A DNA stretch of 36,336 bases from Hyalangium gracile (GTDB lineage: Bacteria > Myxococcota > Myxococcia > Myxococcales > Myxococcaceae): assembly GCF_020103725.1 (NCBI RefSeq), contig NZ_JAHXBG010000030.1, positions 1 to 36,336 on the forward strand, written 5' to 3'. This document shows, one piece after another, positions 1-33,353 of the stretch. Each line of letters begins with the position of its first letter. Position 1 is the first letter of the stretch. A program made the translations under genes and the position numbers. The notes under the pieces are model-generated. The model was not told the origin of the DNA. It did no database searches and saw nothing but the letters and a program-made list of their open reading frames with translations.

Positions 1-78
1 GAGAACCAGCTGCGCTTCGCCGTCCGTGAGGGCGGTCGCACGGTGGGTTCTGGCGTCGTGGCCGAGGTCATCGAGTAA
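1..78 (+). CDS. tuf: Elongation factor Tu, 3' end (partial, start lies outside the window)
   Basis: Frame 1 translates to [25 protein letters not shown]-stop, the conserved EF-Tu C-terminus. It sits directly upstream of rpsJ as in the conserved tuf-S10 arrangement. Confidence 0.9.
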
Positions 79-91
79 GTTCTCCCGACCG

Positions 92-127
92 CTACCCCGG
101 CGGCCAGGAGTTGGATTGCCGGGGTAG
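92..127 (+). promoter_or_regulatory. Perfect 10-bp inverted repeat (CTACCCCGGC...GCCGGGGTAG) with a 16-nt loop in the tuf-rpsJ spacer; candidate tuf terminator or S10 leader structure
   Basis: Arms at 92-101 and 118-127 read directly from the sequence. No clear U-tract follows, so the function is uncertain. Confidence 0.3.
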
Positions 128-264
128 TGTCGGAATACAGTTGCAACCAGAGGGGTGGGGTGGTACATGCCGCGCCCCTCGTCTGAAGCACGGCTCTGTG
201 ACATCCAGGGGACGTCGGTCGTAACGCCTCCACTGCTAGGGGCCGTCTAAGAGGTTTTTTCGAA

Positions 265-573
265 ATGGCGACAACGAAGATTCGCATCCGGCTGAAGGCG
301 TACGACTCGAAGCTCCTGGACCAGAGCGCCGGGGAGATTGTTGAGACGGCCAAGCGCACGGGCGCCAAGGTGGCCGGTCCGATCCCCCTTCCCACGCGCA
401 TCAACAAGTTCACGGTTCTGCGGTCGCCGCACGTGGACAAGAAGAGCCGCGAGCAGTTCGAGATCCGCACGCACAAGCGCTTGCTCGACATCCTCGAGCC
501 CACCCAGCAGACGCTGGATGCGCTGATGAAGCTGGATCTGTCGGCTGGCGTTGACGTGGAGATCAAGTCCTAG
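265..573 (+). CDS. rpsJ: 30S ribosomal protein S10
   Basis: 102-aa [17 protein letters not shown]...[12 protein letters not shown] matches the S10 family. RBS AAGAGG lies at 250-255. Confidence 0.95.
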
Positions 574-623
574 GAAGCGGGAGAGGACTGGCGCGGTTCC
601 ACTCCGACCCCCGAGGAAATGTC

Positions 624-1247
624 ATGGCGAAGTTCAAGGTAATCAACCTCAATGGCGAGCAGGTGTCGGAGATCGAGCTCTCCGACACGGTGTTTGGCGC
701 CGAGCCGAACCCCCACCTCTTCTACGAGGTGGCGAAGATGCAGCAGATCAACCGTCGCCGCGGCACCGTGGGTGTGAAGAACACCTCGCTGGTGAGCGGC
801 GGTGGCAAGAAGCCCTGGAAGCAGAAGGGTACCGGCCGCGCCCGTCAGGGCTCCATCCGCGCTTCCCACTGGGTTGGCGGTGGTAAGGCGATGGCTCCCA
901 AGGCTCGGGACTACACCTACCGTCCTCCCCGCCAGGTTCGTCGCGGCGCGCTCCGCGCGGCGCTCAGCCTGCGCGCCAAGGAGAACGCGCTGGTCATCCT
1001 GGACGGCTTCAAGCTCGACGCCCCGAAGAGCAAGCAGGCCTTCGACGTGCTGACCAAGCGCCTGAAGCTGGAGAACGCCCTGGTCATCGACGAGAAGGGC
1101 AACATCAACCTGCACCGCAGCGTGCGCAACCTGGCTCAGTTCGATGTGCTGCCGCCCGAGGGTATCAACCTCGAGTCCGTGCTCCGCCACAAGCAGCTCG
1201 TGCTGACCTCCGCGGCCGCCAAGGCCATCCAGGAGGCCCTGTCATGA
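624..1247 (+). CDS. rplD: 50S ribosomal protein L4
   Basis: 207 aa with the L4 signature [38 protein letters not shown] at 613-618. Only 50 nt separate it from the rpsJ stop, so there is no room for rplC. Confidence 0.93.
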
Positions 1248-1537
1248 AGATCCACGACGTCATCAAGGGTCCGCTCATCACCGAGAAGCTGGACCAGGCC
1301 CGCGAGAAGTTCCGCCAGTACTCCTTCATCGTCGACAAGAAGGCGACGAAGGTGGACGTGGCTCGCGCGGTCGAGAGCCTCTTCAAGGTCACCGTCGAGG
1401 GCGTTCGCACCAACATCGTCCGCGGCAAGATCAAGCGCGTGGGCAAGAGCATCGGCCAGCGCCCCAACTACAAGAAGGCCGTCGTCACCCTCAAGGAGGG
1501 CGACAAGATCGAGCTCTTCGAGGGAGGGACGGCCTAG
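1244..1537 (+). CDS. rplW: 50S ribosomal protein L23
   Basis: 97 aa [15 protein letters not shown]...; the ATGA overlap with the rplD stop indicates translational coupling. Confidence 0.93.
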
Positions 1538-1569
1538 GCGCACCGCGCTGACCGTCTGAGGAAACCACC

Positions 1570-2415
1570 ATGGGCATCAAGAAGTACAAGCCGACCTCCG
1601 CTGCTCGCCGCCTGATGACGGTGTCCGACTTCGCGGACATCACCAAGGACACGCCGGAGAAGAGCCTCACCGAGCCGCTCAAGCGCTCCGGTGGCCGCAA
1701 CGTCCACGGCCACATCACCCGCCGTCACCAGGGTGGCGGTCACAAGCGCCGCTACCGCGTCATCGACTTCAAGCGTCGTGACAAGGACGGCGTGCCGGCC
1801 AAGGTCGCCTCCGTGGAGTACGACCCGAACCGCACCGCCAACATCGCGCTGCTGCACTACGCGGACGGCGAGAAGCGCTACATCCTGGCCCCGGTGGGCC
1901 TGGCGGTGGGCGACACGCTGTTCGCCGGCCCCAACGCGGACATCCGGCCGGGCAACTGCCTGCCGCTGCTGAACATCCCGGTGGGTACGGTCATCCACAA
2001 CGTGGAGCTGAAGCCGGGCCGCGGCGCGCAGATCATCCGCTCGGCCGGCACCTCCGGTCAGCTGATGGCCAAGGAGGACCGCTACGCCCAGGTCCGCCTG
2101 CCCTCGGGCGCGGTGCGCAAGGTGCTCATCGAGTGCCGCGCCACCGTCGGCCAGCTCGGCAACATCGAGCATGAGATCATCCGCGTCGGCAAGGCGGGTA
2201 AGAGCCGCTGGCTGGGCATCCGGCCCACCGTCCGCGGTCTGGCGATGAACCCGGTCGACCACCCGCACGGTGGCGGTGAGGGTAAGTCCGGCCAGGGTAA
2301 CCCGCACCCGGTGTCGCCGTGGGGCAAGAAGACCAAGGGCCTCACCACGCGCACCAACAAGCGGACCGACAAGTTCATCGTGAGCAAGCGGCGGCAGGGC
2401 CCGCGCAGCCAGTAG
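1570..2415 (+). CDS. rplB: 50S ribosomal protein L2
   Basis: 281 aa [14 protein letters not shown]...HPHGGGEGK... carries L2 family hallmarks. RBS GAGGAA upstream. Confidence 0.95.
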
Positions 2416-2434
2416 CTCGTAAAGGGATTCTGAA

Positions 2435-2722
2435 ATGGCTCGTTCGATCAAGAAGGGACCGTTCGTCGACGATCATCTCCTCAAGAAGGTGGAGGACATG
2501 ATCAAGACGAACCAGAAGAAGGTCGTGAAGACGTGGTCGCGGCGCTCCACCATCCTGCCGGAGTTCGTCGGGCACACCTTCGCGGTTCACAACGGGAAGA
2601 AGTTCATCCCGGTGTTCGTGACGGAGAACATGGTGGGTCACAAGCTCGGCGAGTTCGCGCCGACTCGGACCTTCGGCGGGCACTCGGCGGAGAAGAAGGT
2701 CGCCAAGGCCCCCGGTAAGTAA
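2435..2722 (+). CDS. rpsS: 30S ribosomal protein S19
   Basis: 95 aa [19 protein letters not shown]...[29 protein letters not shown] matches S19. Confidence 0.95.
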
Positions 2723-2746
2723 TCCGGACCGCTCTAGGAGATGACG

Positions 2747-3091
2747 ATGGAGTCCACTGCACATCTGCGCTACGTCCGCATGTCCCCCCGGAAGCTCTCG
2801 ACGGTGGCTGCGCTCGTCCGGGGCAAGCCTGTCGAGGCTGCCCTCAACATCCTGAAGTTCACCCCCCGCGCCGCGGCGGCTCCGCTCGGCAAGCTCATCA
2901 AGAGCGCCGTGGCCAACGCCACCGACAAGTCCAAGGGCCAGGTCGACGTGGACACGCTCTACGTGAAGACCATCTCCGTGGACCAGGCTCCCACCCAGCG
3001 CCGGTACATGCCGCGCGCCATGGGCCGGGCCACGCGCATCAACAAGAAGAGCGCCCACGTTCACGTGGTGCTCGCCGAGGCCAAGAAGTAG
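2747..3091 (+). CDS. rplV: 50S ribosomal protein L22
   Basis: L22-like [17 protein letters not shown]...RGK...ILKF. I place the start at ATG 2747, which has RBS AGGAG 6 nt upstream. The ORF-track ATG at 2741 has no spacer after that RBS. Confidence 0.9.
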
Positions 3092-3125
3092 CCCTCCGGG
3101 CCTTCAATCTTTAAGGAGAAGCACG

Positions 3126-3788
<663 letters not shown>

Positions 3789-3844
3789 CTCTGAGCTCCC
3801 CGGGGCGCCCACGGGTGCCCCTTCGGGGATGAAGGACACCGACG

Positions 3845-4264
3845 ATGCTTCAGCCTGCTCGTACCAAGTTCCGCAAGATGCACAAGGGCCGCACCCCGGG
3901 TAAGGCCCACCGTGGCAGCAACCTCACCTATGGTGAGTACGGCCTCATGTCCCTGCAGCCGGGGTGGATCACCTCGCGGCAGATCGAGGCGGCCCGTATC
4001 GCGATGACCCGCCACGTGAAGCGCGGCGGCAAGATCTGGATCCGGATCTTCCCGGACAAGCCCATCACGAAGAAGCCCGCCGAGACCCGTATGGGTACCG
4101 GTAAGGGAGGCGTGGAGTACTACGTGGCCGTGGTGAAGCCGGGCCGCATCCTCTACGAGATGGAGGGCATGACGGCCGACGTGGCCACCAGCGCGCTCAA
4201 GCTCGCGCAGGCGAAGTTGCCTGTGCTCACCAAGATCGTGACCCGCGGCGCGCTGTCACTCTAG
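3845..4264 (+). CDS. rplP: 50S ribosomal protein L16
   Basis: 139 aa [16 protein letters not shown]... matches L16. Confidence 0.95.
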
Positions 4265-4286
4265 CCCCGCGCCCAGGAGACCGAAG

Positions 4287-4499
4287 ATGGCGACTGCCAA
4301 GGAACTGAAGGAGTTGTCGGTGGAGGACCTGCAGCGGCGCGCGGATGAGCTGCGCACCACGCTGTTCCAGGACCAGCTGAGCATGCGGACGGGCAATCTG
4401 GACAGCCCCTCGCAGCGCACCCAGCACCGCCGCGACCTGGCCCGCGTTCTCACCGTGCTGACGGAGAAGAAGAAGGCTCCGCAGAAGACGGACAAGTAG
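4287..4499 (+). CDS. rpmC: 50S ribosomal protein L29
   Basis: 70 aa MATAKELKELSVEDLQRRADELRTTLFQ... matches L29. RBS AGGAGA at 4275-4280. Confidence 0.93.
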   Translation: MATAKELKELSVEDLQRRADELRTTLFQDQLSMRTGNLDSPSQRTQHRRDLARVLTVLTEKKKAPQKTDK

Positions 4500-4574
4500 C
4501 TTTCAAGGGCATGCCCCCAGGGGCTGCCGTCACCGGGAAGTCCCGGGGACACTGACTGACAGGCGAGATTCACG

Positions 4575-4892
4575 ATGGCTGAAGAGACCCAGACCACCTC
4601 CGCTCCCGAGACCTCCTCCCGCGGCCGTCCCAAGACGCGCGTGGGGATCGTCACCTCGAACAAGATGCAGAAGACGGTGATCGTCACCGTCCAGCGCCGC
4701 GCGCCGCACGCCAAGTACGGCAAGATCATGAGCATGCGCGAGAAGTACAAGGCGCACGTCGAGGACCACGACTACCCGAAGAAGATCACCATCAACGAGG
4801 GTGACCGCGTGCGCATCGCCGAGACGCGGCCGACCTCGAAGGACAAGCGGTGGCGGGTGGTCGAGGTGATCGAGAAGAGCAAGAACGTCTGA
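4575..4892 (+). CDS. rpsQ: 30S ribosomal protein S17
   Basis: 105 aa with an S17 OB-fold core ([16 protein letters not shown]...); a short acidic N-terminal extension precedes it. Confidence 0.93.
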
Positions 4893-5901: not shown

Positions 5902-6567
5902 ATGGCTGACGAGAAGAAGCCTGAGCAGGCTGAGAAGAAGGAAAAGAAGGAAAAGAAGGGCCGCAAGAAGGAAGACGTCAAGAAGGCGGGCTTCGCGGCC
6001 AACATCGAGGAGGGCCTCGAGGCGAAGCCGGCGCGGCTGAAGCTGCGCTACCGCAAGGAGGGAGTGCCCGCCCTGATGAAGGAGCTGGGCCTGAAGAACC
6101 CCTTCCAGGTGCCGCGGCTCGAGAAGATCGTCGTCAACATGGGTCTGGGAGAGGCGCTCTCCAACAACAAGATCCTGGAGTCGGCGGTGGACCAGCTGGG
6201 CGCCATCACCGGTCAGAAGCCGGTCGTGACGCGCGCTCGCAAGTCGATCGCGAACTTCAAGCTGCGCCAGGGCCAGGCCATCGGCTGCGCCGTCACGCTG
6301 CGCGGCGACCGGATGTACGAGTTCCTGGACCGCCTCATCTCCGTGGCGCTGCCGCGCGTGCGTGACTTCAAGGGCGTGTCCCCCAAGGCGTTCGACGGGA
6401 AGGGCAACTACACGCTCGGCGTGCGCGAGCAGATCATCTTCCCTGAGATCAACTACGACCAGATCGAGAAGGTGAAGGGGCTCAACATCAGCTTCGTCAC
6501 CACCGCGAAGAACGACGAGCAGGGGCTGGCGCTGATGCGTCACTTCGGCATGCCGTTCCGCCAGTAA
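5902..6567 (+). CDS. rplE: 50S ribosomal protein L5 with a roughly 43-aa Lys/Glu-rich N-terminal extension
   Basis: 221 aa. From [42 protein letters not shown] onward it aligns to L5. The N-terminal [28 protein letters not shown] has no counterpart in E. coli L5. Confidence 0.88.
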
Positions 6568-16362: not shown

Positions 16363-16534
16363 GCCTTTCGTGGTACCTCCACCCGCGCCGTGACACGGCT
16401 TCACGCGGCGCGGGAAGAGGGGCTCTCCCCAGAGCCCATTGGCAATGGCGGCGCTCGTGTCGGAGCCGCCCTTCCCACCCGGTACCTGATACGGCCGGAG
16501 TGGTGGAGCCCTGAAGGGCTCCGGAGTCGCTCAC

Positions 16535-24012: not shown

Positions 24013-25089
24013 ATGAAGTTTCAGCAGATCGCTCAGTACCGGCTCCAGCAGCAGCAGATTGCCCGGACGCGGTTCAAGACTCCGGGACAGATCGTCTCCT
24101 GGCTCGGGGCCCTCCAGGCGCAAGACTATCCCGGGGCGAAGTGGTCCATCGGCCTGCGGCTGCCGGACACCACCGATGCGGACGTCGAGCAGGCCATCGC
24201 CGACGGGGCCATCGTCCGCTCGTGGCCGATGCGCGGCACGCTCCACATCGTGGCTCCGGAGGATCTGCGCTGGATGCTGGCGCTCCTGGCTCCCCGCAAC
24301 ATGGAGAGCGCCGCCCTGCGGCACCGGCAGATCGGCCTGACGGCCGCCAGGTTCTCGCGCAGCCAGAAGCTCTTCACCAAGGCCTTGCAGGGCGGCCAGG
24401 CCCTGACGCGCGACGAGCTGTATGCCGTGCTGGAGCGCGCCCGGCTCTCGACGGACAGCCAGCGCGGGTATCACTTCTTGTGGAGGGCGGCTCAGGAGGG
24501 GCTGATCTGCTTCGGCCCCACGCGCGGCAAGCAGCAGACCTTCGTGCTCCTGGACGAGTGGGTGCCCGCGTCCAGGAAGCTCGATCGCGAGGAGTCCCTG
24601 GCGGAGCTGGCGATGCGCTACTTCACCAGCCACGGCCCCGCCACGTTGCAGGACTTCCTGTGGTGGTCCGGGCTGAAAGCCGCCGAGGCGAGAGCCGCGC
24701 TGGACTCGGTCTCCTCGCGGCTCGAGCAGGTGACCGTGGACGGACAGGAATACTGGCTGGCCCGCGACCTGCGAGCGCCGAGAGCCGCCTCTCCCACCGC
24801 CTATCTGTTGCCGGGCTTCGATGAGTACATGCTCGGCTACACGGACCGCGGCGCCGTGGTCGCGCCGGAGCATCGGAAGAAGTGGCTCCCCACCAACGGG
24901 ATGTTCAGCCCGATCGTCGTCATTGACGGCCAGGTGCTGGGCACCTGGAAGCGGACGCTCAAGAAGAAGGCGCTGGTCGTGACGGTCCGCTCGTTCGTTC
25001 CGCTGAGCAAGGCCCAGAAGCGCGCGGTCGAAGCCGCGGCCGAGCCCTATGGCCGCTTCATGGGCGCACCCGTCGAGCTGTCCTTCTGA
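24013..25089 (+). CDS. AlkZ/YcaQ-like winged-helix DNA glycosylase (HTH_42 / DUF1006 family)
   Basis: 358 aa. Q35-A36-Q37 (LGALQAQDY) sits at the position of the AlkZ catalytic Q-x-Q motif. Overall length and layout match YcaQ/AlkZ. It starts 9 nt after the EBP stop. Confidence 0.65.
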   Translation: MKFQQIAQYRLQQQQIARTRFKTPGQIVSWLGALQAQDYPGAKWSIGLRLPDTTDADVEQAIADGAIVRSWPMRGTLHIVAPEDLRWMLALLAPRNMESAALRHRQIGLTAARFSRSQKLFTKALQGGQALTRDELYAVLERARLSTDSQRGYHFLWRAAQEGLICFGPTRGKQQTFVLLDEWVPASRKLDREESLAELAMRYFTSHGPATLQDFLWWSGLKAAEARAALDSVSSRLEQVTVDGQEYWLARDLRAPRAASPTAYLLPGFDEYMLGYTDRGAVVAPEHRKKWLPTNGMFSPIVVIDGQVLGTWKRTLKKKALVVTVRSFVPLSKAQKRAVEAAAEPYGRFMGAPVELSF

Positions 25090-25213
25090 GCTCGCGGGAG
25101 CAGGAAGGCTACGGTGGACCCAGGTAGGATGACGGGAAACCCTCAGTGGAACGGGACTGGCGCCGCGAGCAGAATGAGGGGGTTCTCGTGCTTCTCCTGT
25201 CTCGAGGTGCTTC

Positions 25214-28087
25214 ATGGGCAACTCCTCCTCCAGTGGCATTGGCGGCTCGCGTCCTCCCTCCACGACTCGGACCCAACAGGCGTCCACGCAGGCGACCCAG
25301 AAGCCTGTCAGCGTGCCCCCGCCGCCGAAGCCGCCGCCACCTTCTCCCAAGGAGCTGATGGACAAGTTCTTCGCCCAGCAGAAGTCGAAGAACCCCAACA
25401 TCTCCGAGACGGTCGCAGGCGATGTCTCGGTGGCCAACGCGCCCCGCATGAGCCCCGCGCAGCTGATGGCCCTGGCCTCCAAGGGCTTCGCCGCCACGCT
25501 GCCCAAGGCTGGCACCGGCGCGGGGGCCACGGGCACGGTGGCTCAGAGCACTCCCTCCAAGCCGCCCACGGCCCAGAGCCCCGCCTCGTCGCTGGCGAGC
25601 GAGGTGCTCAACGATGGCAGCTCGAACTGCCTCGAGAGCGCCTACGAGTCCGCACGCCCGGGCGATCAGATCCTCCTCTACAGGGACGCGGATGATCCCG
25701 TGGGCCACGCCGTCGTGCAGCGCCCGGATGGCTCCATCTCCGACCCGAACGAGCCCGGCAAGGTGTACGCCAGCCGCGCGGAGTGGGAGGCGGCCCACAC
25801 CGACTACCACCAGCCGGTCTCCATCCCCCAGTCGCACCTGCGCCAGGTCTTCGCCCAGCCGCCCGGCCCGCAGCGAGACGCCGTCATCCAGAAGCTGGGG
25901 CTCACCTCCATCGCCTACCGCCAGGTGGCCGATGGTGTCACCGCCGAGCGCCAGGACGCGCTGCGCTTCGCGGCCGAGCAGATCGGCAATGAGCCCGCGA
26001 TGATGGAGCAGGTCTTCGCCGGGACCCTGCAGCCGGGACCGCTCACCGCCGAGGAGAGGGCCTTCCTCGTCCAGCAGATGGTGGAGCGCAGCATCGCGAG
26101 CGGTGATGCGCAGGCCTTCTCGCTGGCGGGCTCCAACCCGGCGGCGTACCCGGAGCTGGCGCGGGCGCTGGGCCATGCCTTCGAGATGGGGGCGGTGACG
26201 CCCGAGATGCTGGGCCAGTTGATGGGCCCCGACGGCCTGGGGCGATACGAGGAGTACTCGGAGTTCGCCGAGCTCATCGCCGCCAGCGGCTCGGATGCGC
26301 TCCAGTCCGAGGTGGCCGGGCAGCTGTGGGCGCTGTCGGGCGGGGATCTGTCGGCCCAGGCCGCGGCCCTCACCGCCGCCGGGAGCTCCGGGCCCGCCGC
26401 CCAGCGGCTCATCGACACCGCGGGCGTGGACGCGCTCACCCAGACCCTCACCACCCTCAGCGCCAACTCGAGCATGGGCACCGAGGACAACGTCTGGGCC
26501 CAGGCCGTCGGCGGACTGATGTCCGGACTGGCCGAGCTGCCTCGCTCGGAGACGACGGACCGTCTGGGGGCCACGGTCCTCATGGCGCTGCCGCCGGAGA
26601 CGCTCCAGAACAGCAGCACCGTGCGCGGCCCCGTGGCCCAGTACCTGTCGTCCATCCGGTTCCCCGGGGACACCGCGGCCCAGCAGGCCGACACCCGGAA
26701 CTGGGAGGCCATCCTCCAGAACACCCATGGGGCCTCGCTGCTCTTCAACCCGCAGCTGCCGGTGGAGGCCCGCCAGGCCAATCTGCTCTTCTTCCTCCAG
26801 CGGCCGAACTTCAACCCCGAGCTGCTCAACACCTACCAGGGCAACCTGGGCAGCATCGCCGCGGCCGAGGTCCAGACGGCCCTGGGCAACATGGATCCGG
26901 CGAACGTGAACGGGGCGGCGGAGCTGCCGGCCGTCCCCGGAGACCTGGCCGGCCAGTTCCCGGCCATCGCGAACCTGCCCCAGCCGGTGACCGCGGAGAG
27001 CCTGCAGGGCTCCATCCCCAACCCCATCACTCCGGCCATGGCCGCCGACTACCTGGATGCCCTGGCCTCCTCCATCGCCGCCACCGGCAACACGGACCTC
27101 TCCGCGTACACCGGCGGCGACCAGGCCATGGCGACCCTCTTCAACGTGATCGCCGGCAACCCCATCCAGCAGGCCCACCTGGATGACTTCTCGGCCATCG
27201 GCGTCGCGGGGCTGAGGGAGCTAGCCCAGCAGATCCGCGGCTCGAGTGATCCCGCGTTCGTGGCCCAGGCGCTCACGCTCGGCGGCATCCAGCACGACAC
27301 GTACTTCGACAACCTGGGGCCCTTCGTGGACAGCGTGATCGCCCAGCGCGATCAGATCCTGGGCAACATCACCGGTGTGCGGCAGCTGGCCGAGACCGCG
27401 TGCAAGACGGGCGTCTCCGCGCTGGCCATGGCCGCCGGAGGGCCCGTGGCCGCCGCCGCAGCCAACGCCGCGCTCGGCTCGGTCTTCGCGCAGCTCGAGG
27501 CCAACCAGGAGGGGCGCGAGCTCACCCTGCCCAACCTCGTCGGCGGGGCGATCCTGGACTTCGGCGTGGGAGCGCTGGCGCCCGTGCTCGGCGCGCGCGC
27601 CAAGGATGCGCTCGGGCCCGTCCTGGGGCGGCTGGCTCCCGTCATCCAGGGCCTGTTCGAGGCCGCGGGCGGTCAGGCCGCGGACATCCTCCGCGATCCG
27701 GCGAAGCTCGAGGAGCTCTGGGCGAGCGGCCAGTCGCGAGACGATCTGATGCGGGCCCTCATCCTCGGCACCGTCACCAACTCCATCCCGTGGGACTCGC
27801 TCACGCCCAACCTCAAGGGCCAGATCGCCACCTTCCTGCGCGTGGACTTCGAGACGCAGGACATCGCGTCGGAGTTGCTCAAGGGCGCGGCGATGCAGGC
27901 CGCCACCATCTGGTTCGACCCGAACTTCCAGGCCCGGCTGCGCTCGGGGGAGATCTCCCCCGAGCAGGCTGTCCAGGAGATGCAGGCCAGCGGCGTCAGC
28001 ATCTTCGGAAATGGCACCACCGGCACGGACCCCGCCACCACCGAGGCCATGCTGCGCATCCTCATGTCGAGCCCCGAGACGCCGTGA
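25214..28087 (+). CDS. Large hypothetical protein (957 aa); Pro/Ser/Thr-rich disordered N-terminus, then a long Ala/Gly/Leu-rich predicted-helical region; no signal peptide or TM
   Basis: GC3 is very high in this frame. The overlapping minus-strand 689-aa ORF is Arg/Gly-rich and is a typical antisense artefact. N-terminus MGNSSSSGIGG. A Cys...His...Asp cluster at about aa 170-215 (SNCLESAY...GHAVV...DGSISD). Confidence 0.7.
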   Translation: MGNSSSSGIGGSRPPSTTRTQQASTQATQKPVSVPPPPKPPPPSPKELMDKFFAQQKSKNPNISETVAGDVSVANAPRMSPAQLMALASKGFAATLPKAGTGAGATGTVAQSTPSKPPTAQSPASSLASEVLNDGSSNCLESAYESARPGDQILLYRDADDPVGHAVVQRPDGSISDPNEPGKVYASRAEWEAAHTDYHQPVSIPQSHLRQVFAQPPGPQRDAVIQKLGLTSIAYRQVADGVTAERQDALRFAAEQIGNEPAMMEQVFAGTLQPGPLTAEERAFLVQQMVERSIASGDAQAFSLAGSNPAAYPELARALGHAFEMGAVTPEMLGQLMGPDGLGRYEEYSEFAELIAASGSDALQSEVAGQLWALSGGDLSAQAAALTAAGSSGPAAQRLIDTAGVDALTQTLTTLSANSSMGTEDNVWAQAVGGLMSGLAELPRSETTDRLGATVLMALPPETLQNSSTVRGPVAQYLSSIRFPGDTAAQQADTRNWEAILQNTHGASLLFNPQLPVEARQANLLFFLQRPNFNPELLNTYQGNLGSIAAAEVQTALGNMDPANVNGAAELPAVPGDLAGQFPAIANLPQPVTAESLQGSIPNPITPAMAADYLDALASSIAATGNTDLSAYTGGDQAMATLFNVIAGNPIQQAHLDDFSAIGVAGLRELAQQIRGSSDPAFVAQALTLGGIQHDTYFDNLGPFVDSVIAQRDQILGNITGVRQLAETACKTGVSALAMAAGGPVAAAAANAALGSVFAQLEANQEGRELTLPNLVGGAILDFGVGALAPVLGARAKDALGPVLGRLAPVIQGLFEAAGGQAADILRDPAKLEELWASGQSRDDLMRALILGTVTNSIPWDSLTPNLKGQIATFLRVDFETQDIASELLKGAAMQAATIWFDPNFQARLRSGEISPEQAVQEMQASGVSIFGNGTTGTDPATTEAMLRILMSSPETP

Positions 28088-28153
28088 GCGCCGGCTTGCT
28101 CGGGTGACGAGGCTTGGGAGCGCGGGGGATCGCGCTCCCGTGCTCGTCCCGGC

Positions 28154-30931
28154 TCAGTACAGGAGCAGCTTGCCGGCGCGGAAGAAGCACACCCGCGTCT
28201 GATCCTGCGCGTCGACGGCGGCGTCGATCTCCGCCGCGTCCACCGCGCTCAGGTTCTCGGTGCGAGACCAGTAGTTGTCCGAGCCTGGCCGAGCGACCTC
28301 GAGCTGGCCTCCGTGAGTGAAGGCGAGGCGAGGTCTGCCGCTGGCATCCGCGGCGACGGCGAGCTCCGTGAGGGAGAATCCCTCCACGTTGGACACGCTG
28401 ACCGTGCTGGCGCTGAACGGGGTGCCGAGCGTCACCCGCTGCAGCCCGTACTGTGTGAGCAGCAGCGGTCCCGTGGTCGTCCAGGAGGTGGAGATCCTCG
28501 CGCTGCCCAGGCTGCCAGGCAGCGTCAGCGCCTCGGGTGCGCCCGTGCTCTTCCAGGCCCCCAGGAAGGTGTCGCTGTAGGGGATGTAGAGCGTGCCGCT
28601 CGGGCTGAAGACGGCATCCCCGAGGGGCTGCTGGTGGCTGCTGGCGGTGGTGGGAAAGGTGACCAGCGTGGAGGACCAGGCAGCGGCGCCCGTGCGGTAG
28701 GCGACGGCCGTGCGCCAGAGATTTCCGATGCTGTTCACGTAGCCGTACCAGCCATAGACGACGGTGGGACGGTTGCCGTTGGAGGGATCCAGAGCAATGG
28801 AGACCCAGGTGTCCGAGTCGACAGGCGTCGCGGTGGAGTCCACGCGCTCGCGGATCCAGGTGTTCCCGGAGCGCGTGGCGTACCAGAGCCCCTTGCCGCC
28901 CAGCAGGTATGCCAGGTGGGGTGTCCCATCGGCGGCGACGGTCATCGCCAGGGACTCCAGGACGACGCCGCCGGTGTTGAAGCCCATGCCATCCACCTGC
29001 TCCATGGCCCAGGTGGTGCCGGTGCGCGTGCCGTACCACAGAGAGGGGTGTGTCAGTCCGCGGAAGGCCAGGTGCGCCACGGCTCCACGCATCTCCAGCT
29101 GGCACGTCGAGCCGAAGCGCTCGTGGCCCTCGGCCACCACCTCGGGGACGCGGACGTAGGGAGTCACGGTGAGGGTGAGGGTGGCGGTGGCCTTCAGCCC
29201 GTCGTTGTCCGTGACTTCCAGCGTCACGGTGTACGTGCCCGGGGAGGCATAGGTGTGCGGGGCCTGAGGAGCCGTGCCGTCCACGGGCGGTGTCGAGTCG
29301 CCGAAGTCGAAGCGGTAGCGGGTGACAGTGCCATCCGGATCGCTGGAGGTGGCGCCGTCGAAGGTGGCGACGCGGAGGGCTTCCGCCTGAGCGGGCCCTG
29401 TCAGCCGCGCCACGGGAGGCAGCTTCACCTGCGCTGGCTCCATGACGAGCTGGATGCTGGAGCTGGCCACCCGGCCGCCGGAGTCGGTGGCCGTCAGGGT
29501 GATCTGATGCGTACCCGCGCCCAGCGAGCCCACGTCCAGTGAGGAGCCCTGGCCAAGCTGCCCGGCGAGGCTGGACTGCCAGGAGAGGCGGTTGCCGGTG
29601 AGCACGCCGTCCTCGGGATCCTGTGCGGAGCCGCGCAGAGCCACCACGGTGCCTACGGTGAAGCGGGAGCCGTTGGCCGGAGCGGTGATCTGAACGGAGG
29701 GAGGGTTGTTGGCGGGGAGGACCTCGACGGTGATGCGAGCGGCGCTCTCGTTGCCCGTGGAGTCCCTGGCGGTGAGGACGAGCTCATGGGAGCCAGGCGA
29801 GAGCCCCGGCACGGTGAGCGGGCTGCCTGTCCCGAGGGAGCCCGCGAGGCTGGAGGACCAGCGCAGCGAGGCGCCCGACAGGGGGCCATCCTCGGCGTCA
29901 GTGGCGGTGCCCTCCAGGGTGAGGGGAGTGCCAGCGAAGAGGGTGAAGCCGTTGGCGGGGCGGGTGATGGAGACGGTGGGAGCCGTCTGGCCCTGGACGG
30001 TGACGGTGACGAGCACGGAGGCGCTGGAAGAGGCGCCCAGCGAGTCGGTGGCGGTGAGCGTCAGGGTGTGAGAGCCGGCCGAGAGCAGCACGCCGGTCAC
30101 CTGGCGGCCCGTGCCCAGGGCGCCATCCTTGCTGGAGGTCCACTTCAGAGCGCTGTCGGCCAGCGTGCCATCCTCGGCATCCGTGGCGCTGCCTTGCAGG
30201 GTGACGGCCTGGGTGGTGAGGAAGCGTGCGCCCTCGGTGGGCTGTGTGAGGGTGACGACCGGCTTCAGGTTGGTGCCGGGAGGGACGACCGTCACCGTGA
30301 CGCTGGCGTAGCCAACCTGGCCTGACGGATCCACGGCGGTCAACAGCAGGCGGTGAACCCCGCGAGTCGCGCCGGAGAAGGACAGCTGGGTGCCGGTGCC
30401 GATGACGCCGCCTTTGTCGGAGCTCCAGGTGAGCGCCGCGCCGGACAGCGCTCCCGTCTCTGGATCCAGGGCCTTGCCGCGCAGCGGAATGGGCGAGCCC
30501 TCCTCGAAGGTGGCGCCCGAGGTGGGCGACTCGATGGTGGCCACCGGAGGCTGATTCTCGATGATGACGGTGACGGAGAGCTGCGCACGCGCCTGCTTAC
30601 CGCCGGAGTCGGTGACATCCAGGCTGAGGCGGTGCTCGCCGGCGGAGAGCCGGGCGCTCAGGGGAGTGCCGGTGCCCAGCTCGCCATCGAGGCTCGAGGA
30701 CCAGCGCAGGGCGGTGCCGCTCAGAGGGCCGTCTTCCGGATCGGTGGCCAGACCTGCCAGCTCATGTGGCCCGGCTCCCCGCAGCGTGGCGCCATTCTCG
30801 GGCGAGAGGATGCGGGCGGTAGGCGCGGTGTTCTCAGGCGGTGGCGGTGGCGGTGGAGGCGGCTGAGGCTTGTCGCCCCCACAGCCCGCCAGCGCCACGA
30901 GCGCGAGCACCAGAAGGATGCGTGTGGACAT
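28154..30931 (-). CDS. Surface lipoprotein with five tandem Ig-like repeats (about 93 aa each), one PKD domain and a roughly 330-aa C-terminal beta-propeller-like domain of unknown function
   Basis: 925 aa. Signal plus lipobox LVALAGCGG, then a poly-Pro linker. Each repeat carries ATDxEDGxL...W(S/T)SS(L/K)DGxLGTG...G.H.L.LTA.DS.G. PKD-like segment RYRFDFGDSTPPVDGTAPQAPHTYASPGTYTVTLEVTDNDG. The C-terminal domain has recurring (L/I)AY...GLWYAT.SGNTW units. Confidence 0.8.
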   Translation of the reverse strand: MSTRILLVLALVALAGCGGDKPQPPPPPPPPPENTAPTARILSPENGATLRGAGPHELAGLATDPEDGPLSGTALRWSSSLDGELGTGTPLSARLSAGEHRLSLDVTDSGGKQARAQLSVTVIIENQPPVATIESPTSGATFEEGSPIPLRGKALDPETGALSGAALTWSSDKGGVIGTGTQLSFSGATRGVHRLLLTAVDPSGQVGYASVTVTVVPPGTNLKPVVTLTQPTEGARFLTTQAVTLQGSATDAEDGTLADSALKWTSSKDGALGTGRQVTGVLLSAGSHTLTLTATDSLGASSSASVLVTVTVQGQTAPTVSITRPANGFTLFAGTPLTLEGTATDAEDGPLSGASLRWSSSLAGSLGTGSPLTVPGLSPGSHELVLTARDSTGNESAARITVEVLPANNPPSVQITAPANGSRFTVGTVVALRGSAQDPEDGVLTGNRLSWQSSLAGQLGQGSSLDVGSLGAGTHQITLTATDSGGRVASSSIQLVMEPAQVKLPPVARLTGPAQAEALRVATFDGATSSDPDGTVTRYRFDFGDSTPPVDGTAPQAPHTYASPGTYTVTLEVTDNDGLKATATLTLTVTPYVRVPEVVAEGHERFGSTCQLEMRGAVAHLAFRGLTHPSLWYGTRTGTTWAMEQVDGMGFNTGGVVLESLAMTVAADGTPHLAYLLGGKGLWYATRSGNTWIRERVDSTATPVDSDTWVSIALDPSNGNRPTVVYGWYGYVNSIGNLWRTAVAYRTGAAAWSSTLVTFPTTASSHQQPLGDAVFSPSGTLYIPYSDTFLGAWKSTGAPEALTLPGSLGSARISTSWTTTGPLLLTQYGLQRVTLGTPFSASTVSVSNVEGFSLTELAVAADASGRPRLAFTHGGQLEVARPGSDNYWSRTENLSAVDAAEIDAAVDAQDQTRVCFFRAGKLLLY

Positions 30932-30940
30932 GGCTCGGCT

Positions 30941-32389
30941 CTACTGGAACATCACCTTCGAGCCGGACTGGAAGCAGTAGTGGAGCGCGCCCGTCGTGGG
31001 CCGCTGCGCCAGGGCGACGCGCCTGTTGGTGGTCGCCGTACCGACGTCCGTATAGGTCCAGTAGTTGTTGGCGTTGGGGGCGACCAGCTCCAGGGAGCTC
31101 CCATGGAGATGGATTTCCTGGGGCTTGCCCCCGGCGAAGACCAGGTCACCCACGGGCGCCTGGACTCCTTCGATATCCGAGACGATGAAGGAGGCCACGG
31201 GCGTCGTCGTTCCGACAGTGATGTCCAACAGGGTGCTCCCCGCTCGGAGCAGCAGGCGTCCCGTCCCCGTCCTCACCAGGGCCTCCTGGTCGCTCTCGTA
31301 CAGAGTGCCGCTGAAGAACACGTAGCTGGCAGGGGCCGCGTTTGCCTTCCAGGTGCCGATCGCGGCGTACCCGAAGGGAATGTAGAGCGTCCCGTTGGGC
31401 TCGAAGACCATCTCCCCTCGGACGTTCTGCTCCTCATAGGCGTAGTTGTGCGGGAACTCGAGCATGGTGGCGGTCCAGGCGTTCGCGCCTGTCCGGTAGG
31501 CCATGACGGTCCGGGTGGTGGTGGTCCCCGCGCTGCTGAGATAGCCACGCCAGCTATAGGCGATCGTGGGGCGGTTGCCCTGGGACGGATCCAGGGCGAT
31601 GGAGACGCGGTAGTTGGAGTGGGGCGGGAGCGAAGGGGTGTCGACCCGCTCACGGATCCACGTGTTGCCCGAGAGCGTGGCGTACCACACGCCCTTGCCG
31701 CTCATCCTGTAGGCGATGTGGGGCTTGCCCGCGGTGTCCAGGACCATCGCCATGGTGTTCATCACGATGCCGCCCGTGTTGAAGCCCATGCCATCCACCA
31801 TCTGGGTCGTCCACGCGGAGCCGTTCCAGGTGCCGTACCAGAGCGAGGGGTGGGTCTCGTTGTGGTAGATGAGGTGCCCGATCCCCGCCGCATCGAAGGC
31901 CAGGTCACAGACATCGCCCGTCTCGTCGTCGGAGGTATCCACGGCCACGGGGGCGAACGCCACGTTGGCGGCCTGGGGTTCGGTGGACTGGCTGGAGGCC
32001 TCGGCGGAGACGCGGTACTGGAAGGTCTCGGTGAGCTGCTCGCCCGAGTCCGTCTCCGCGGTGAGGGTGAGGGTGGCGGTGCCGGCCCGAGGCAGCGTCC
32101 AGGTGGCCTCCATCCCCTGCGTCTCCAGCATCCCGCCGCTGGCGCTCCAGAGCACGGATTTCACGTCCGGCCGCGAGGAGACGGCGCGGAAGCGCTCCAC
32201 CGTGCGCTCCAGATAGGGGCCCTGGTTCTCTCGCTCCAGGCTGAAGCTGCGCGCGGTGGGCAGCGGCAGGTTCCCTGAGGAGGGGATGGCCGGGTGGGAA
32301 GGGACCACCGAGGTGGGCTCGGCGCAGCCCACGAGGACGAGAGCGGTACACAGGCCGAGGCGCCAGGCCTGCCAGAGAAGCGAGGTCAT
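30941..32389 (-). CDS. Paralogous lipoprotein: one Ig-like domain plus the same C-terminal beta-propeller-like domain as the upstream lipoprotein
   Basis: 482 aa with lipobox LVLVGCAEP. The C-terminal region is about 55-60% identical to the neighbour (HPSLWYGTWNGSAWTTQMVDGMGFNTGG...GKGVWYATLSGNTWIRERVDTPS). A shared 24-nt DNA identity, GTGTTGAAGCCCATGCCATCCACC, occurs in both genes. The gap to the neighbour is 9 nt. Confidence 0.8.
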   Translation of the reverse strand: MTSLLWQAWRLGLCTALVLVGCAEPTSVVPSHPAIPSSGNLPLPTARSFSLERENQGPYLERTVERFRAVSSRPDVKSVLWSASGGMLETQGMEATWTLPRAGTATLTLTAETDSGEQLTETFQYRVSAEASSQSTEPQAANVAFAPVAVDTSDDETGDVCDLAFDAAGIGHLIYHNETHPSLWYGTWNGSAWTTQMVDGMGFNTGGIVMNTMAMVLDTAGKPHIAYRMSGKGVWYATLSGNTWIRERVDTPSLPPHSNYRVSIALDPSQGNRPTIAYSWRGYLSSAGTTTTRTVMAYRTGANAWTATMLEFPHNYAYEEQNVRGEMVFEPNGTLYIPFGYAAIGTWKANAAPASYVFFSGTLYESDQEALVRTGTGRLLLRAGSTLLDITVGTTTPVASFIVSDIEGVQAPVGDLVFAGGKPQEIHLHGSSLELVAPNANNYWTYTDVGTATTNRRVALAQRPTTGALHYCFQSGSKVMFQ

Positions 32390-32423
32390 GTGAGGGGGCT
32401 CCCTTTGGGAAGTCAGCCTCCGC

Positions 32424-33353
32424 TTATCGAGCGGAGGCGACTGCCGTCAATTGCGGCTTCCCCTCAAGCGCGCAGGAGGTGAGCGCCGCCACGACTGGCA
32501 GGCCTGTGTTGTAGAGGGCCGTGCGGCTGCTGCCCACCTGCTGCACGCTGCGGTTCCAGATGACGTAGGAGAGCACCAGGGAGATCAGCGCCGAGTAGGC
32601 CAGGGCCGCCCACGCTCCAGGTCCGACGCGGGAGGGCTCGAGCTCCAGCACGGCCGGCAACCCCGCGAGGACCACGGCGGGGGCACCGGAGATCATCGTC
32701 ATCGCGGTGACGCGCAGCGCCGACAGTCCCGGGTCCAGGGTGCGCAGGCCCACCGTGTAGATGGCCCAGCAGACGCACCCGGCGAGGATGAGCAGATCCC
32801 CCACGCGCGTATCCGCGCTCAGCTCCGGCCCGCGTGCCGCCACCACCAGGATCATCCCCGGCACCGAGAGCACCAGCCCGAGCACGACGTTGCGGGTGAG
32901 CCGCTCCAGCCCGAAGGCCGCCGCGAGGGACGTGGTGAGCACCGGCGACACCGCCGTGAGCAGCCCGCTGTTGGCCGCCGTGGTGCGGTCGATGCCCAGC
33001 ATGAAGAAGAGCTGGTACAGCGTGTTGCCCATGAGCCCCAGCGCCATGAGCCGCAAGAGCGTGGCGCGGGGCAGCGGCTTCCAGCCCTCCAGCCGCCACA
33101 GCAGCACCCCCATGGCCAGCGCGGCGAGGCCGAAGCGCAGCGACATGAAGGCCAGCGCCGGAATGGCGTCCAGCGCCTCCTTCACCACCGTGTAGTTCGT
33201 CCCCCAGATGACCACCACGGAGGCGATGGCCACGTCCGACAGGGAGAAGCGGCGAGCCGGAGAGGAGGGCGGCGGGCTGGAAGGAGGGGAGGTGCTCACG
33301 GCGGAGGGACGCCTGGCGGCGCCGGGCTCCTGTACACCGGAGGCGCTTCCCAC
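32424..33353 (-). CDS. EamA/DMT-family transporter (10 predicted TM)
   Basis: 309 aa, hydrophobic throughout, with two EamA-like halves. The N-terminal 35 aa are low-complexity Ser/Pro and may not be translated; the true start may lie downstream. Confidence 0.7.
   Translation of the reverse strand: MGSASGVQEPGAARRPSAVSTSPPSSPPPSSPARRFSLSDVAIASVVVIWGTNYTVVKEALDAIPALAFMSLRFGLAALAMGVLLWRLEGWKPLPRATLLRLMALGLMGNTLYQLFFMLGIDRTTAANSGLLTAVSPVLTTSLAAAFGLERLTRNVVLGLVLSVPGMILVVAARGPELSADTRVGDLLILAGCVCWAIYTVGLRTLDPGLSALRVTAMTMISGAPAVVLAGLPAVLELEPSRVGPGAWAALAYSALISLVLSYVIWNRSVQQVGSSRTALYNTGLPVVAALTSCALEGKPQLTAVASAR

What the first reader, a model, noticed from the sequence alone, without database searches (positions are those of the whole stretch)
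574..623. rplC (ribosomal protein L3) is absent from its conserved slot between rpsJ and rplD
The rpsJ stop (573) and rplD start (624) are only 50 nt apart. That spacer holds nothing but the rplD RBS. The downstream 207-aa ORF is unambiguously L4 ([19 protein letters not shown] signature) and not an L3-L4 fusion. No L3-like ORF appears anywhere in the 36 kb. The S10 operon order rpsJ-rplC-rplD-rplW is nearly universal in bacteria, and L3 is essential. So rplC must have relocated elsewhere in the genome, or this locus carries a deletion or an assembly error.
Basis: partly seen in the sequence, partly recalled or inferred. Interest (0 to 1): 0.5.

Follow-up and report, generated by a model that had tools for sequence, protein, structure and literature searches.

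The report
Myxobacterial S10 operon without rplC
The gene for ribosomal protein L3 really is missing between rpsJ and rplD here, but this is the normal gene order of myxobacteria, which keep L3 as a separate gene elsewhere, so the finding is ordinary.

Summary
rpsJ ends at 573 and rplD starts at 624. The 50-nt spacer holds only a GAGGA ribosome-binding site. The other ten S10-operon genes follow in canonical order, and no L3 coding sequence exists anywhere in the 36 kb.

The window is from Hyalangium gracile, so this is not a deletion or an assembly error. The same rpsJ-rplD junction, with a 2-53 nt gap and no L3, is found in:
- two complete Myxococcus genomes;
- the M. xanthus DK1622 annotation;
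- about 20 independent contigs from 'Myxococcales bacterium' metagenome assemblies, whose L4 is only 52-77% identical to this one.

As a control, 119 of 120 non-myxobacterial loci with a similar S10 show rpsJ-rplC-rplD.

In M. xanthus DK1622, rplC is MXAN_3370. It is a stand-alone gene 58 kb downstream on the same strand, just upstream of the nfsA-H sporulation operon. Its mRNA level and developmental profile match those of rplD.

I could not reach the H. gracile rplC itself. It is not within about 19 kb past the window end in a close relative.

The parts
1..78 (+). 3' end of tuf (EF-Tu), the last gene of the str cluster, upstream of the S10 operon
   Evidence: Pfam GTP_EFTU_D3, 1.7e-06, on the 25 encoded residues. 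Full S12-S7-EF-G-EF-Tu-S10 order is seen in Myxococcus loci L001 and L002.
79..264 (+). tuf-rpsJ intergenic region: a hairpin after tuf (85-133), a promoter-like TTGCAA (144-149) ... TACAT followed by CCGCGCCCCT (170-179), and a leader conserved in Myxococcus and in MAG L013
   Evidence: Sequence, alignments and motif positions. The promoter function is inferred, not shown. The simple sigma-70 scan found nothing and no Rfam family matched.
265..573 (+). rpsJ (ribosomal protein S10), 102 aa
   Evidence: Pfam Ribosomal_S10, 1.7e-38. 93-100% identical to myxobacterial S10 proteins.
574..623 (+). 50-nt rpsJ-rplD spacer, the slot where rplC sits in most bacteria. It holds only the rplD Shine-Dalgarno GAGGA (613-617).
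   Evidence: Sequence. The spacer is conserved with Myxococcus (53 nt) and shortens to 37, 19, 8, 3 or 2 nt in other lineages. It folds no better than shuffled sequence.
624..1247 (+). rplD (ribosomal protein L4), 207 aa, normal length, not a fusion
   Evidence: Pfam Ribosomal_L4, 2.4e-59, residues 17-204. 100% identical to the L4 of Hyalangium gracile, P0001.
1244..4892 (+). Rest of the S10 operon in canonical order: rplW, rplB, rpsS, rplV, rpsC, rplP, rpmC, rpsQ
   Evidence: Pfam hits for each ORF. Same order and sizes in Myxococcus L001.

Best explanation
This is the normal S10 operon of myxobacteria. In an ancestor of the lineage, rplC left its slot between rpsJ and rplD. That left rpsJ and rplD joined by a short spacer that carries only the rplD ribosome-binding site.

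L3 is still made, from a stand-alone rplC gene elsewhere on the chromosome. In M. xanthus DK1622 that gene is MXAN_3370, 58 kb downstream on the same strand, directly upstream of the nfsA-H sporulation operon. Its own promoter holds its mRNA at the same level and on the same developmental time course as rplD.

Shown:
- the junction in this window and in relatives;
- the absence of L3 from the window;
- the M. xanthus position and expression of rplC.

Inferred:
- that H. gracile likewise has a single relocated rplC;
- that the move happened once, early in the lineage;
- that rplC has its own promoter of the ribosomal-protein type.
For: (1) The window is Hyalangium gracile. L4 is 100% identical to P0001, and the GAF, GDT1, PsuG, EamA and 482-aa proteins match H. 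gracile RefSeq proteins exactly, all on a 139,861-bp contig.

(2) Two complete Myxococcus genomes (CP071091.1, CP102770.1) show S12-S7-EF-G-EF-Tu-S10-L4-L23-L2... with a 53-nt S10-L4 gap and no L3 within 10 kb on either side.

(3) M. xanthus DK1622 coordinates are rpsJ 3854626-3854934, rplD 3854988-3855611 and rplC (MXAN_3370) 3913660-3914304 forward. rplC lies between MXAN_3368 and nfsA, MXAN_3371 (PMC6791715 supplement). PMC2875238 states that Mxan_3370 lies upstream of nfsA and is transcribed differently from it.

(4) In the same data set rplC falls in developmental group 6 with S10, L4, L23 and L5. Its RPKM series is 1043/690/2260/2682/1766/1565/1456. rplD gives 1455/522/2213/2779/1893/1921/1803.

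(5) About 20 contigs from three further S10 clusters all have S10 followed directly by L4. Two of the clusters are labelled 'Myxococcales bacterium' by NCBI. Their L4 is 52-57% or 74-77% identical to this one.

(6) Control: 120 loci from other phyla with a similar S10 motif. 119 show S10-L3-L4, and E. coli L3 detects L3 in them at 42-51% identity. The remaining locus, L213, ends just after rpsJ.

(7) A stand-alone rplC exists on a 67.8% GC soil contig (L326), flanked by unrelated genes. Upstream it carries the 12-mer CACCGCGCCCCT, which also lies upstream of rpsJ in Myxococcus and MAG L013. In this window the shared part is the 10-mer CCGCGCCCCT.
Against: In a close relative, no L3 lies in the ~19 kb beyond the window end. 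The relative is a Myxococcaceae metagenome-assembled genome (MAG) whose GAF protein falls in the same 90%-identity cluster. This covers up to about 55 kb from rpsJ. So the M. xanthus position (59 kb) is neither confirmed nor excluded for Hyalangium.

The taxon of the L326 contig is unknown, so its link to myxobacteria rests only on G+C content and a short motif.

I did not see named members of other Myxococcota classes or families (Sorangium, Nannocystis, Anaeromyxobacter). How deep the trait goes is therefore judged only from L4 divergence and NCBI 'Myxococcales bacterium' labels.
Confidence: 0.9

Rival explanations
1. Assembly error or strain-specific deletion: rplC was lost from this contig by misassembly or by a recent deletion in this isolate.
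For: Only that rplC is absent from a slot that is conserved in most bacteria, as in the 119 control loci.
Against: The same junction occurs in two finished Myxococcus chromosomes, in the M. xanthus DK1622 annotation, and in about 20 contigs assembled independently from different samples. The spacer sequence itself is conserved between Hyalangium and Myxococcus. G+C content is even across the junction.
Confidence: 0.02
2. rplC is still in the window but unrecognised: very divergent, on the other strand, or fused to L4.
For: None beyond a 33-residue chance hit at 25679-25777 (E 0.059).
Against: tblastn of the window with E. coli L3 and with the stand-alone high-GC L3 P0512 finds nothing. The Nitrospira, Desulfovibrionaceae and deltaproteobacterial L3 queries likewise found nothing in the 21 related S10 loci. 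All five queries find L3 in the control loci. L4 is 207 aa and is covered end to end by the L4 profile. Every long ORF downstream has another Pfam assignment or none resembling L3.
Confidence: 0.01
3. The move is recent and local to Hyalangium or Myxococcaceae, rather than an old trait of the wider lineage.
For: Named genomes seen here are only Hyalangium and Myxococcus. The deeper lineages are unnamed MAGs.
Against: Contigs with L4 only 52-57% and L2 70-73% identical to this window share the S10-L4 junction. That is far more divergent than Myxococcus (L4 83%, L2 94%). NCBI labels their S10 'Myxococcales bacterium'.
Confidence: 0.05
4. L3 has been lost and its role taken over by another protein.
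For: None.
Against: M. xanthus has an annotated, highly expressed 214-aa L3. L3 is a universally conserved core protein of the large subunit (established knowledge).
Confidence: 0.01

Closest known systems
Myxococcus xanthus DK1622 S10 locus (MXAN_3299 rpsJ, MXAN_3300 rplD ...) with rplC at MXAN_3370
   Same: rpsJ is followed directly by rplD (53-nt gap there, 50 nt here), with the same downstream order. S10 is about 99% and L4 about 83% identical in Myxococcus.
   Different: The position of rplC in H. gracile is unknown. In a close Hyalangium-like MAG it is not within about 55 kb of rpsJ. H. gracile also carries extra genes between the sigma-54 activator and psuG.
Canonical bacterial S10 operon (E. 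coli rpsJ-rplC-rplD-rplW-rplB-rpsS-rplV-rpsC-rplP-rpmC-rpsQ)
   Same: Ten of the eleven genes are present, on the same strand and in the same order, downstream of tuf and followed by the spc and alpha clusters.
   Different: rplC is absent from position 2. No Rfam leader family matched upstream of rpsJ. L4 autoregulation through the S10 leader is known from E. coli (PMC3616713, title and abstract) and was not tested here.
Cyanobacterial and plastid arrangement, where rpsJ sits at the end of the str cluster (after tufA) and the large cluster begins with rplC (my own knowledge, not tested here)
   Same: Another lineage-wide break of the S10 operon at the rpsJ/rplC boundary, with the separated genes still co-expressed.
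   Different: There rpsJ is the gene split off and rplC stays with rplD. Here rplC alone is removed and rpsJ stays joined to rplD.

Membership tests
Canonical bacterial S10 ribosomal protein operon | rpsJ is the first gene, downstream of the str/tuf cluster | tested here: met
   tuf 3' end at 1-78 and rpsJ at 265-573.
Canonical bacterial S10 ribosomal protein operon | rplC is the second gene, between rpsJ and rplD | tested here: not met
   The spacer is 50 nt. There is no L3 in the window. The control loci do have it.
Canonical bacterial S10 ribosomal protein operon | rplD-rplW-rplB-rpsS-rplV-rpsC-rplP-rpmC-rpsQ are contiguous on one strand | tested here: met
   Pfam assignments of ORFs from 624 to 4892.
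Canonical bacterial S10 ribosomal protein operon | L4-responsive leader upstream of rpsJ (E. coli type) | tested here: inconclusive
   No Rfam family reaches gathering score in 79-264. A leader conserved among myxobacterial loci exists, but its function is untested.
Myxobacterial S10 operon lacking rplC (as annotated in M. xanthus DK1622) | rpsJ and rplD are directly adjacent, with a spacer of a few to about 55 nt | tested here: met
   50 nt here. 53 nt in Myxococcus and DK1622. 37, 19, 8, 3 and 2 nt in MAG lineages.
Myxobacterial S10 operon lacking rplC (as annotated in M. xanthus DK1622) | A single rplC is encoded elsewhere in the same genome as a separate transcription unit | not testable with these tools
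   The rest of the H. gracile assembly could not be reached. H. gracile L4 is not indexed for context look-up. For M. xanthus the feature is met according to PMC6791715 and PMC2875238.

The most novel reading that the evidence does not exclude
Removal of rplC from the S10 operon is a single ancient event shared by most or all of Myxococcota. The stand-alone rplC is driven by its own ribosomal-protein-type promoter, which shares the TA..(C/G)CCGCGCCCCT element seen upstream of rpsJ. This would let L3, an early assembly protein of the large subunit, be dosed independently of the other S10-operon proteins. In Myxococcus, where rplC sits next to the nfs sporulation operon, that could act during development.
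Probability: 0.3. Interest if true: 0.35.

Novelty: already known. Interest (0 to 1): 0.15.

Why it matters
It matters little for biology at large. It is a lineage-typical gene order that has been visible in public annotations since the M. xanthus DK1622 genome, although I found no paper in the searchable library that comments on it.

There are two modest practical points, both my inference:
- The rpsJ-rplD junction could serve as a simple gene-order marker for myxobacterial contigs.
- Methods that harvest the syntenic block of ribosomal proteins from one scaffold will systematically miss L3 in this group.

It also shows that the stoichiometry of L3 and L4 mRNA can be kept without co-transcription.

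Tried and rejected
(1) Exact look-up of the H. gracile L4 for genomic context: not on record.

The aim was to find relatives that keep rplC. It returned 120 loci of Spirochaetes, Desulfobacterota, Nitrospira and others, and no myxobacterium.

(3) Metagenome scan with L17, to test whether rplC lies just downstream of the alpha operon in other lineages: no L3 in any of the 80 loci. In the L243 lineage there is also none within about 20 kb downstream of rplQ.

(4) L3 profile search of the 90%-clustered protein collection: the top 120 were gammaproteobacterial and Desulfobacterota-like, with no myxobacterial name.

(5) L3 profile against the 50%-identity representatives gave 150 clusters without names. 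Cluster look-ups gave no organism names. Two candidates with the HGTHE.FRHGGSIG motif turned out to sit in canonical S10-L3-L4 loci. A third, P0512, is stand-alone, but its taxon is unknown.

(6) Walking outward from the window end through a Hyalangium-like MAG: about 19 kb beyond the window, no L3.

(7) PLSDB and the PDB hold no myxobacterial L3 or ribosome. A viral-contig scan with P0512 found nothing.

(8) Supplements of other M. xanthus and Sorangium papers were not held or not informative.

(9) The spacer as a regulatory hairpin: it folds no better than shuffles (z +0.81, -0.19, -1.74), so I rejected this as evidence.

Full report
**Observation.**
- rpsJ is 265-573 (102 aa) and rplD is 624-1247 (207 aa). 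The 50 nt between them contain a GAGGA Shine-Dalgarno at 613-617 and nothing else.
- Pfam assigns Ribosomal_S10 (1.7e-38) and Ribosomal_L4 (2.4e-59). The L4 match covers residues 17-204 of 207, so L4 is not a fusion. L23 and L2 follow.
- S19, L22, S3, L16, L29, S17, L14, L24 and L5 come next in canonical order.
- The window starts inside the 3' end of tuf. It runs through the spc and alpha clusters to L17 and about 19 kb of unrelated genes.
- No L3 coding sequence is present. tblastn with E. coli L3 gives only a 33-residue chance hit (E 0.059) inside another ORF. My recalled E. coli sequence was verified as 100% identical to E. coli records. A high-GC stand-alone L3 used as query also finds nothing in the window.

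**Source.** L4 is 100% identical to the L4 of Hyalangium gracile. Five other window proteins are exact matches to H. gracile RefSeq proteins on a 139,861-bp contig.

**Not an artefact.**
- Two finished Myxococcus chromosomes (CP071091.1, CP102770.1) show S12, S7, EF-G, EF-Tu, S10, L4, L23, L2 and so on. The S10-L4 gap is 53 nt, and no L3 lies within 10 kb on either side.
- The published M. xanthus DK1622 table gives rpsJ at 3854626-3854934 and rplD at 3854988-3855611, again a 53-nt gap (PMC6791715 supplement).
- The spacer sequence aligns between Hyalangium and Myxococcus.

**Depth of the trait.** S10 is so conserved that its nearest database clusters span several lineages. I looked up three of them.
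- Ten different contigs carrying P0146 all show S10 followed directly by L4. Gaps are 2-19 nt.
- The contigs carrying P0175 show the same junction with an 8-nt gap. NCBI labels both P0146 and P0175 'Myxococcales bacterium'.
- The contigs carrying P0233 show it with a 37-nt gap.
- Their L4 is 52-57% or 74-77% identical to this window. The figure for Myxococcus is 83%. Four different L3 queries find no L3 in any of them.

The junction is therefore old and widespread in the group, not a Hyalangium peculiarity. I did not see named genomes of the other Myxococcota classes. 'Phylum-wide' thus remains an inference.

**Control.** I scanned the genome collection for a myxobacterial-type S10 motif followed at operon distance by the start motif of L3. 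It returned 120 loci of Spirochaetes, Desulfobacterota, Nitrospira, Sumerlaeota and others.
- 119 have rpsJ-rplC-rplD, and E. coli L3 detects their L3 at 42-51% identity. The remaining locus ends just after rpsJ.
- None is myxobacterial: S10 is at most 84% and L4 at most 41% identical to the window.
- The method would therefore have seen an L3 in the window or in the related loci.

**Where rplC is.**
- In M. xanthus DK1622, L3 is MXAN_3370 (MXAN_RS16315), at 3913660-3914304 on the forward strand. That is 58 kb downstream of rplD. It lies between the hypothetical gene MXAN_3368 and nfsA (MXAN_3371), the first gene of the nfsA-H sporulation operon.
- Müller et al. note different transcription patterns of Mxan_3370 and nfsA and infer a promoter between them (PMC2875238).
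- In the developmental RNA-seq data, rplC falls in the same expression group (DG6) as S10, L4, L23 and L5. Its RPKM values nearly superimpose on those of rplD.
- Separation from the operon has therefore not uncoupled its expression.

**Attempts to reach the Hyalangium rplC.** These failed.
- Walking outward from the window end through a Myxococcaceae MAG shows about 19 kb more with no L3. The MAG's GAF and PsuG proteins cluster at 90% or more with the window proteins.
- The genes seen there are a Ddl-like ATP-grasp protein, Peptidase_Mx, a protein kinase, ABC-F, a methyltransferase, three CheB genes, a histidine kinase, an SLT/TPR protein, SelA, HNH and a ParA-like protein.
- In a more distant lineage (L243, L327) there is no L3 within about 20 kb downstream of rplQ.

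**A stand-alone rplC elsewhere.**
- An L3 profile search of the 50%-identity representatives gave 150 clusters.
- One of them (P0467/P0512) is a stand-alone rplC on a 67.8% GC soil contig, L326. A divergent phosphodiesterase-like gene lies upstream and an FtsJ-like methyltransferase gene lies downstream.
- About 240 nt upstream of this rplC is the 12-mer CACCGCGCCCCT, preceded by a TA-containing hexamer. The same 12-mer lies upstream of rpsJ in Myxococcus and MAG L013. The H. gracile window shares only the 10-mer CCGCGCCCCT.
- This fits a shared -10/discriminator element of ribosomal-protein promoters. But the 10-mer is expected 0.5 times per 36 kb by chance, and the taxon of L326 is unknown. 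I treat it as a lead only.

**How it works (best account).** An ancestor lost rplC from the operon by a clean excision or rearrangement. The shortest spacers are 2-3 nt, and no remnant is detectable.
- rpsJ and rplD are co-transcribed. rplD is translated from its own Shine-Dalgarno, 6 nt upstream of the ATG.
- L3 is supplied by a monocistronic gene with its own promoter. That promoter responds to growth and development like the other ribosomal protein genes (shown for M. xanthus mRNA levels, inferred for H. gracile).
- The last codons of rpsJ (UCCUA) can pair with the rplD Shine-Dalgarno in three lineages. The folds are no better than shuffled sequence, so I do not claim translational coupling.

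**Comparison and novelty.** The arrangement is identical in kind to the M. xanthus DK1622 annotation. It differs from the canonical S10 operon only in lacking rplC. It is analogous to the cyanobacterial split of rpsJ from rplC (my own knowledge, not tested).
- I found no paper in the library that discusses it.
- Verdict: real observation, ordinary explanation, low interest.

Noticed in passing
window 16447-16503 (+): Rfam RF03132 (L17-Actino-Proteobacteria ribosomal protein leader), 41.3 bits against a gathering score of 34.9, just upstream of rplQ. It was the only Rfam hit in the window.
   Followed up: no
window 85-264 (+): After the tuf stop there is a long inverted repeat (85-133). Then come a promoter-like TTGCAA (144-149) ... 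TACAT and a leader with blocks conserved in Myxococcus and MAG L013, for example GCTCTGTGACA. This may be the S10 operon promoter and a regulatory leader. No Rfam family matches.
   Followed up: partly
window 170-179; L001 9533-9542; L013 1902-1911; L326 1188-1197; L243 4633-4642: The 10-mer CCGCGCCCCT, preceded by a TA-containing hexamer, recurs upstream of rpsJ in three myxobacterial lineages. It also lies upstream of a stand-alone rplC on soil contig L326 and inside the ribosomal cluster of L243. It may be a shared -10/discriminator element. The statistics are weak.
   Followed up: partly
window 5902-6567 (+): Ribosomal protein L5 is 221 aa and has a Lys/Glu-rich N-terminal extension of about 60 residues before the Pfam L5 domain, which starts at residue 66. 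L5 is also long (217 aa) in Myxococcus.
   Followed up: no
window 24013-33353: The block after rplQ is syntenic in a distant relative (L327/L328). It comprises an unknown gene, a TPR protein, an acyltransferase, a deoxynucleoside kinase, a 392-aa DUF protein, an FHA-sigma54 activator and psuG. H. gracile has about 9 kb inserted between the activator and psuG. The insert holds an AlkZ-like glycosylase, a 957-aa protein with no Pfam hit, a 925-aa PKD/Ig-domain protein, a 482-aa protein with no Pfam hit, and an EamA transporter.
   Followed up: no
L013 1-2309: In one myxobacterial MAG lineage (L4 74% identical), EF-G is followed directly by rpsJ with no tuf in between.
   Followed up: no
window 568-626; L001 9942-10007; L013 2304-2353: The last rpsJ codon plus stop (UCCUA) can pair with the rplD Shine-Dalgarno in three lineages that have different spacers. 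The fold energies are not better than shuffled sequence.
   Followed up: partly
proteins P0121, P0122 (S10 search): Two metagenomic 'S10' proteins of 166 and 141 aa score higher than a full-length identical match. They contain a partial tandem duplication of the S10 core, probably from chimeric assemblies.
   Followed up: no
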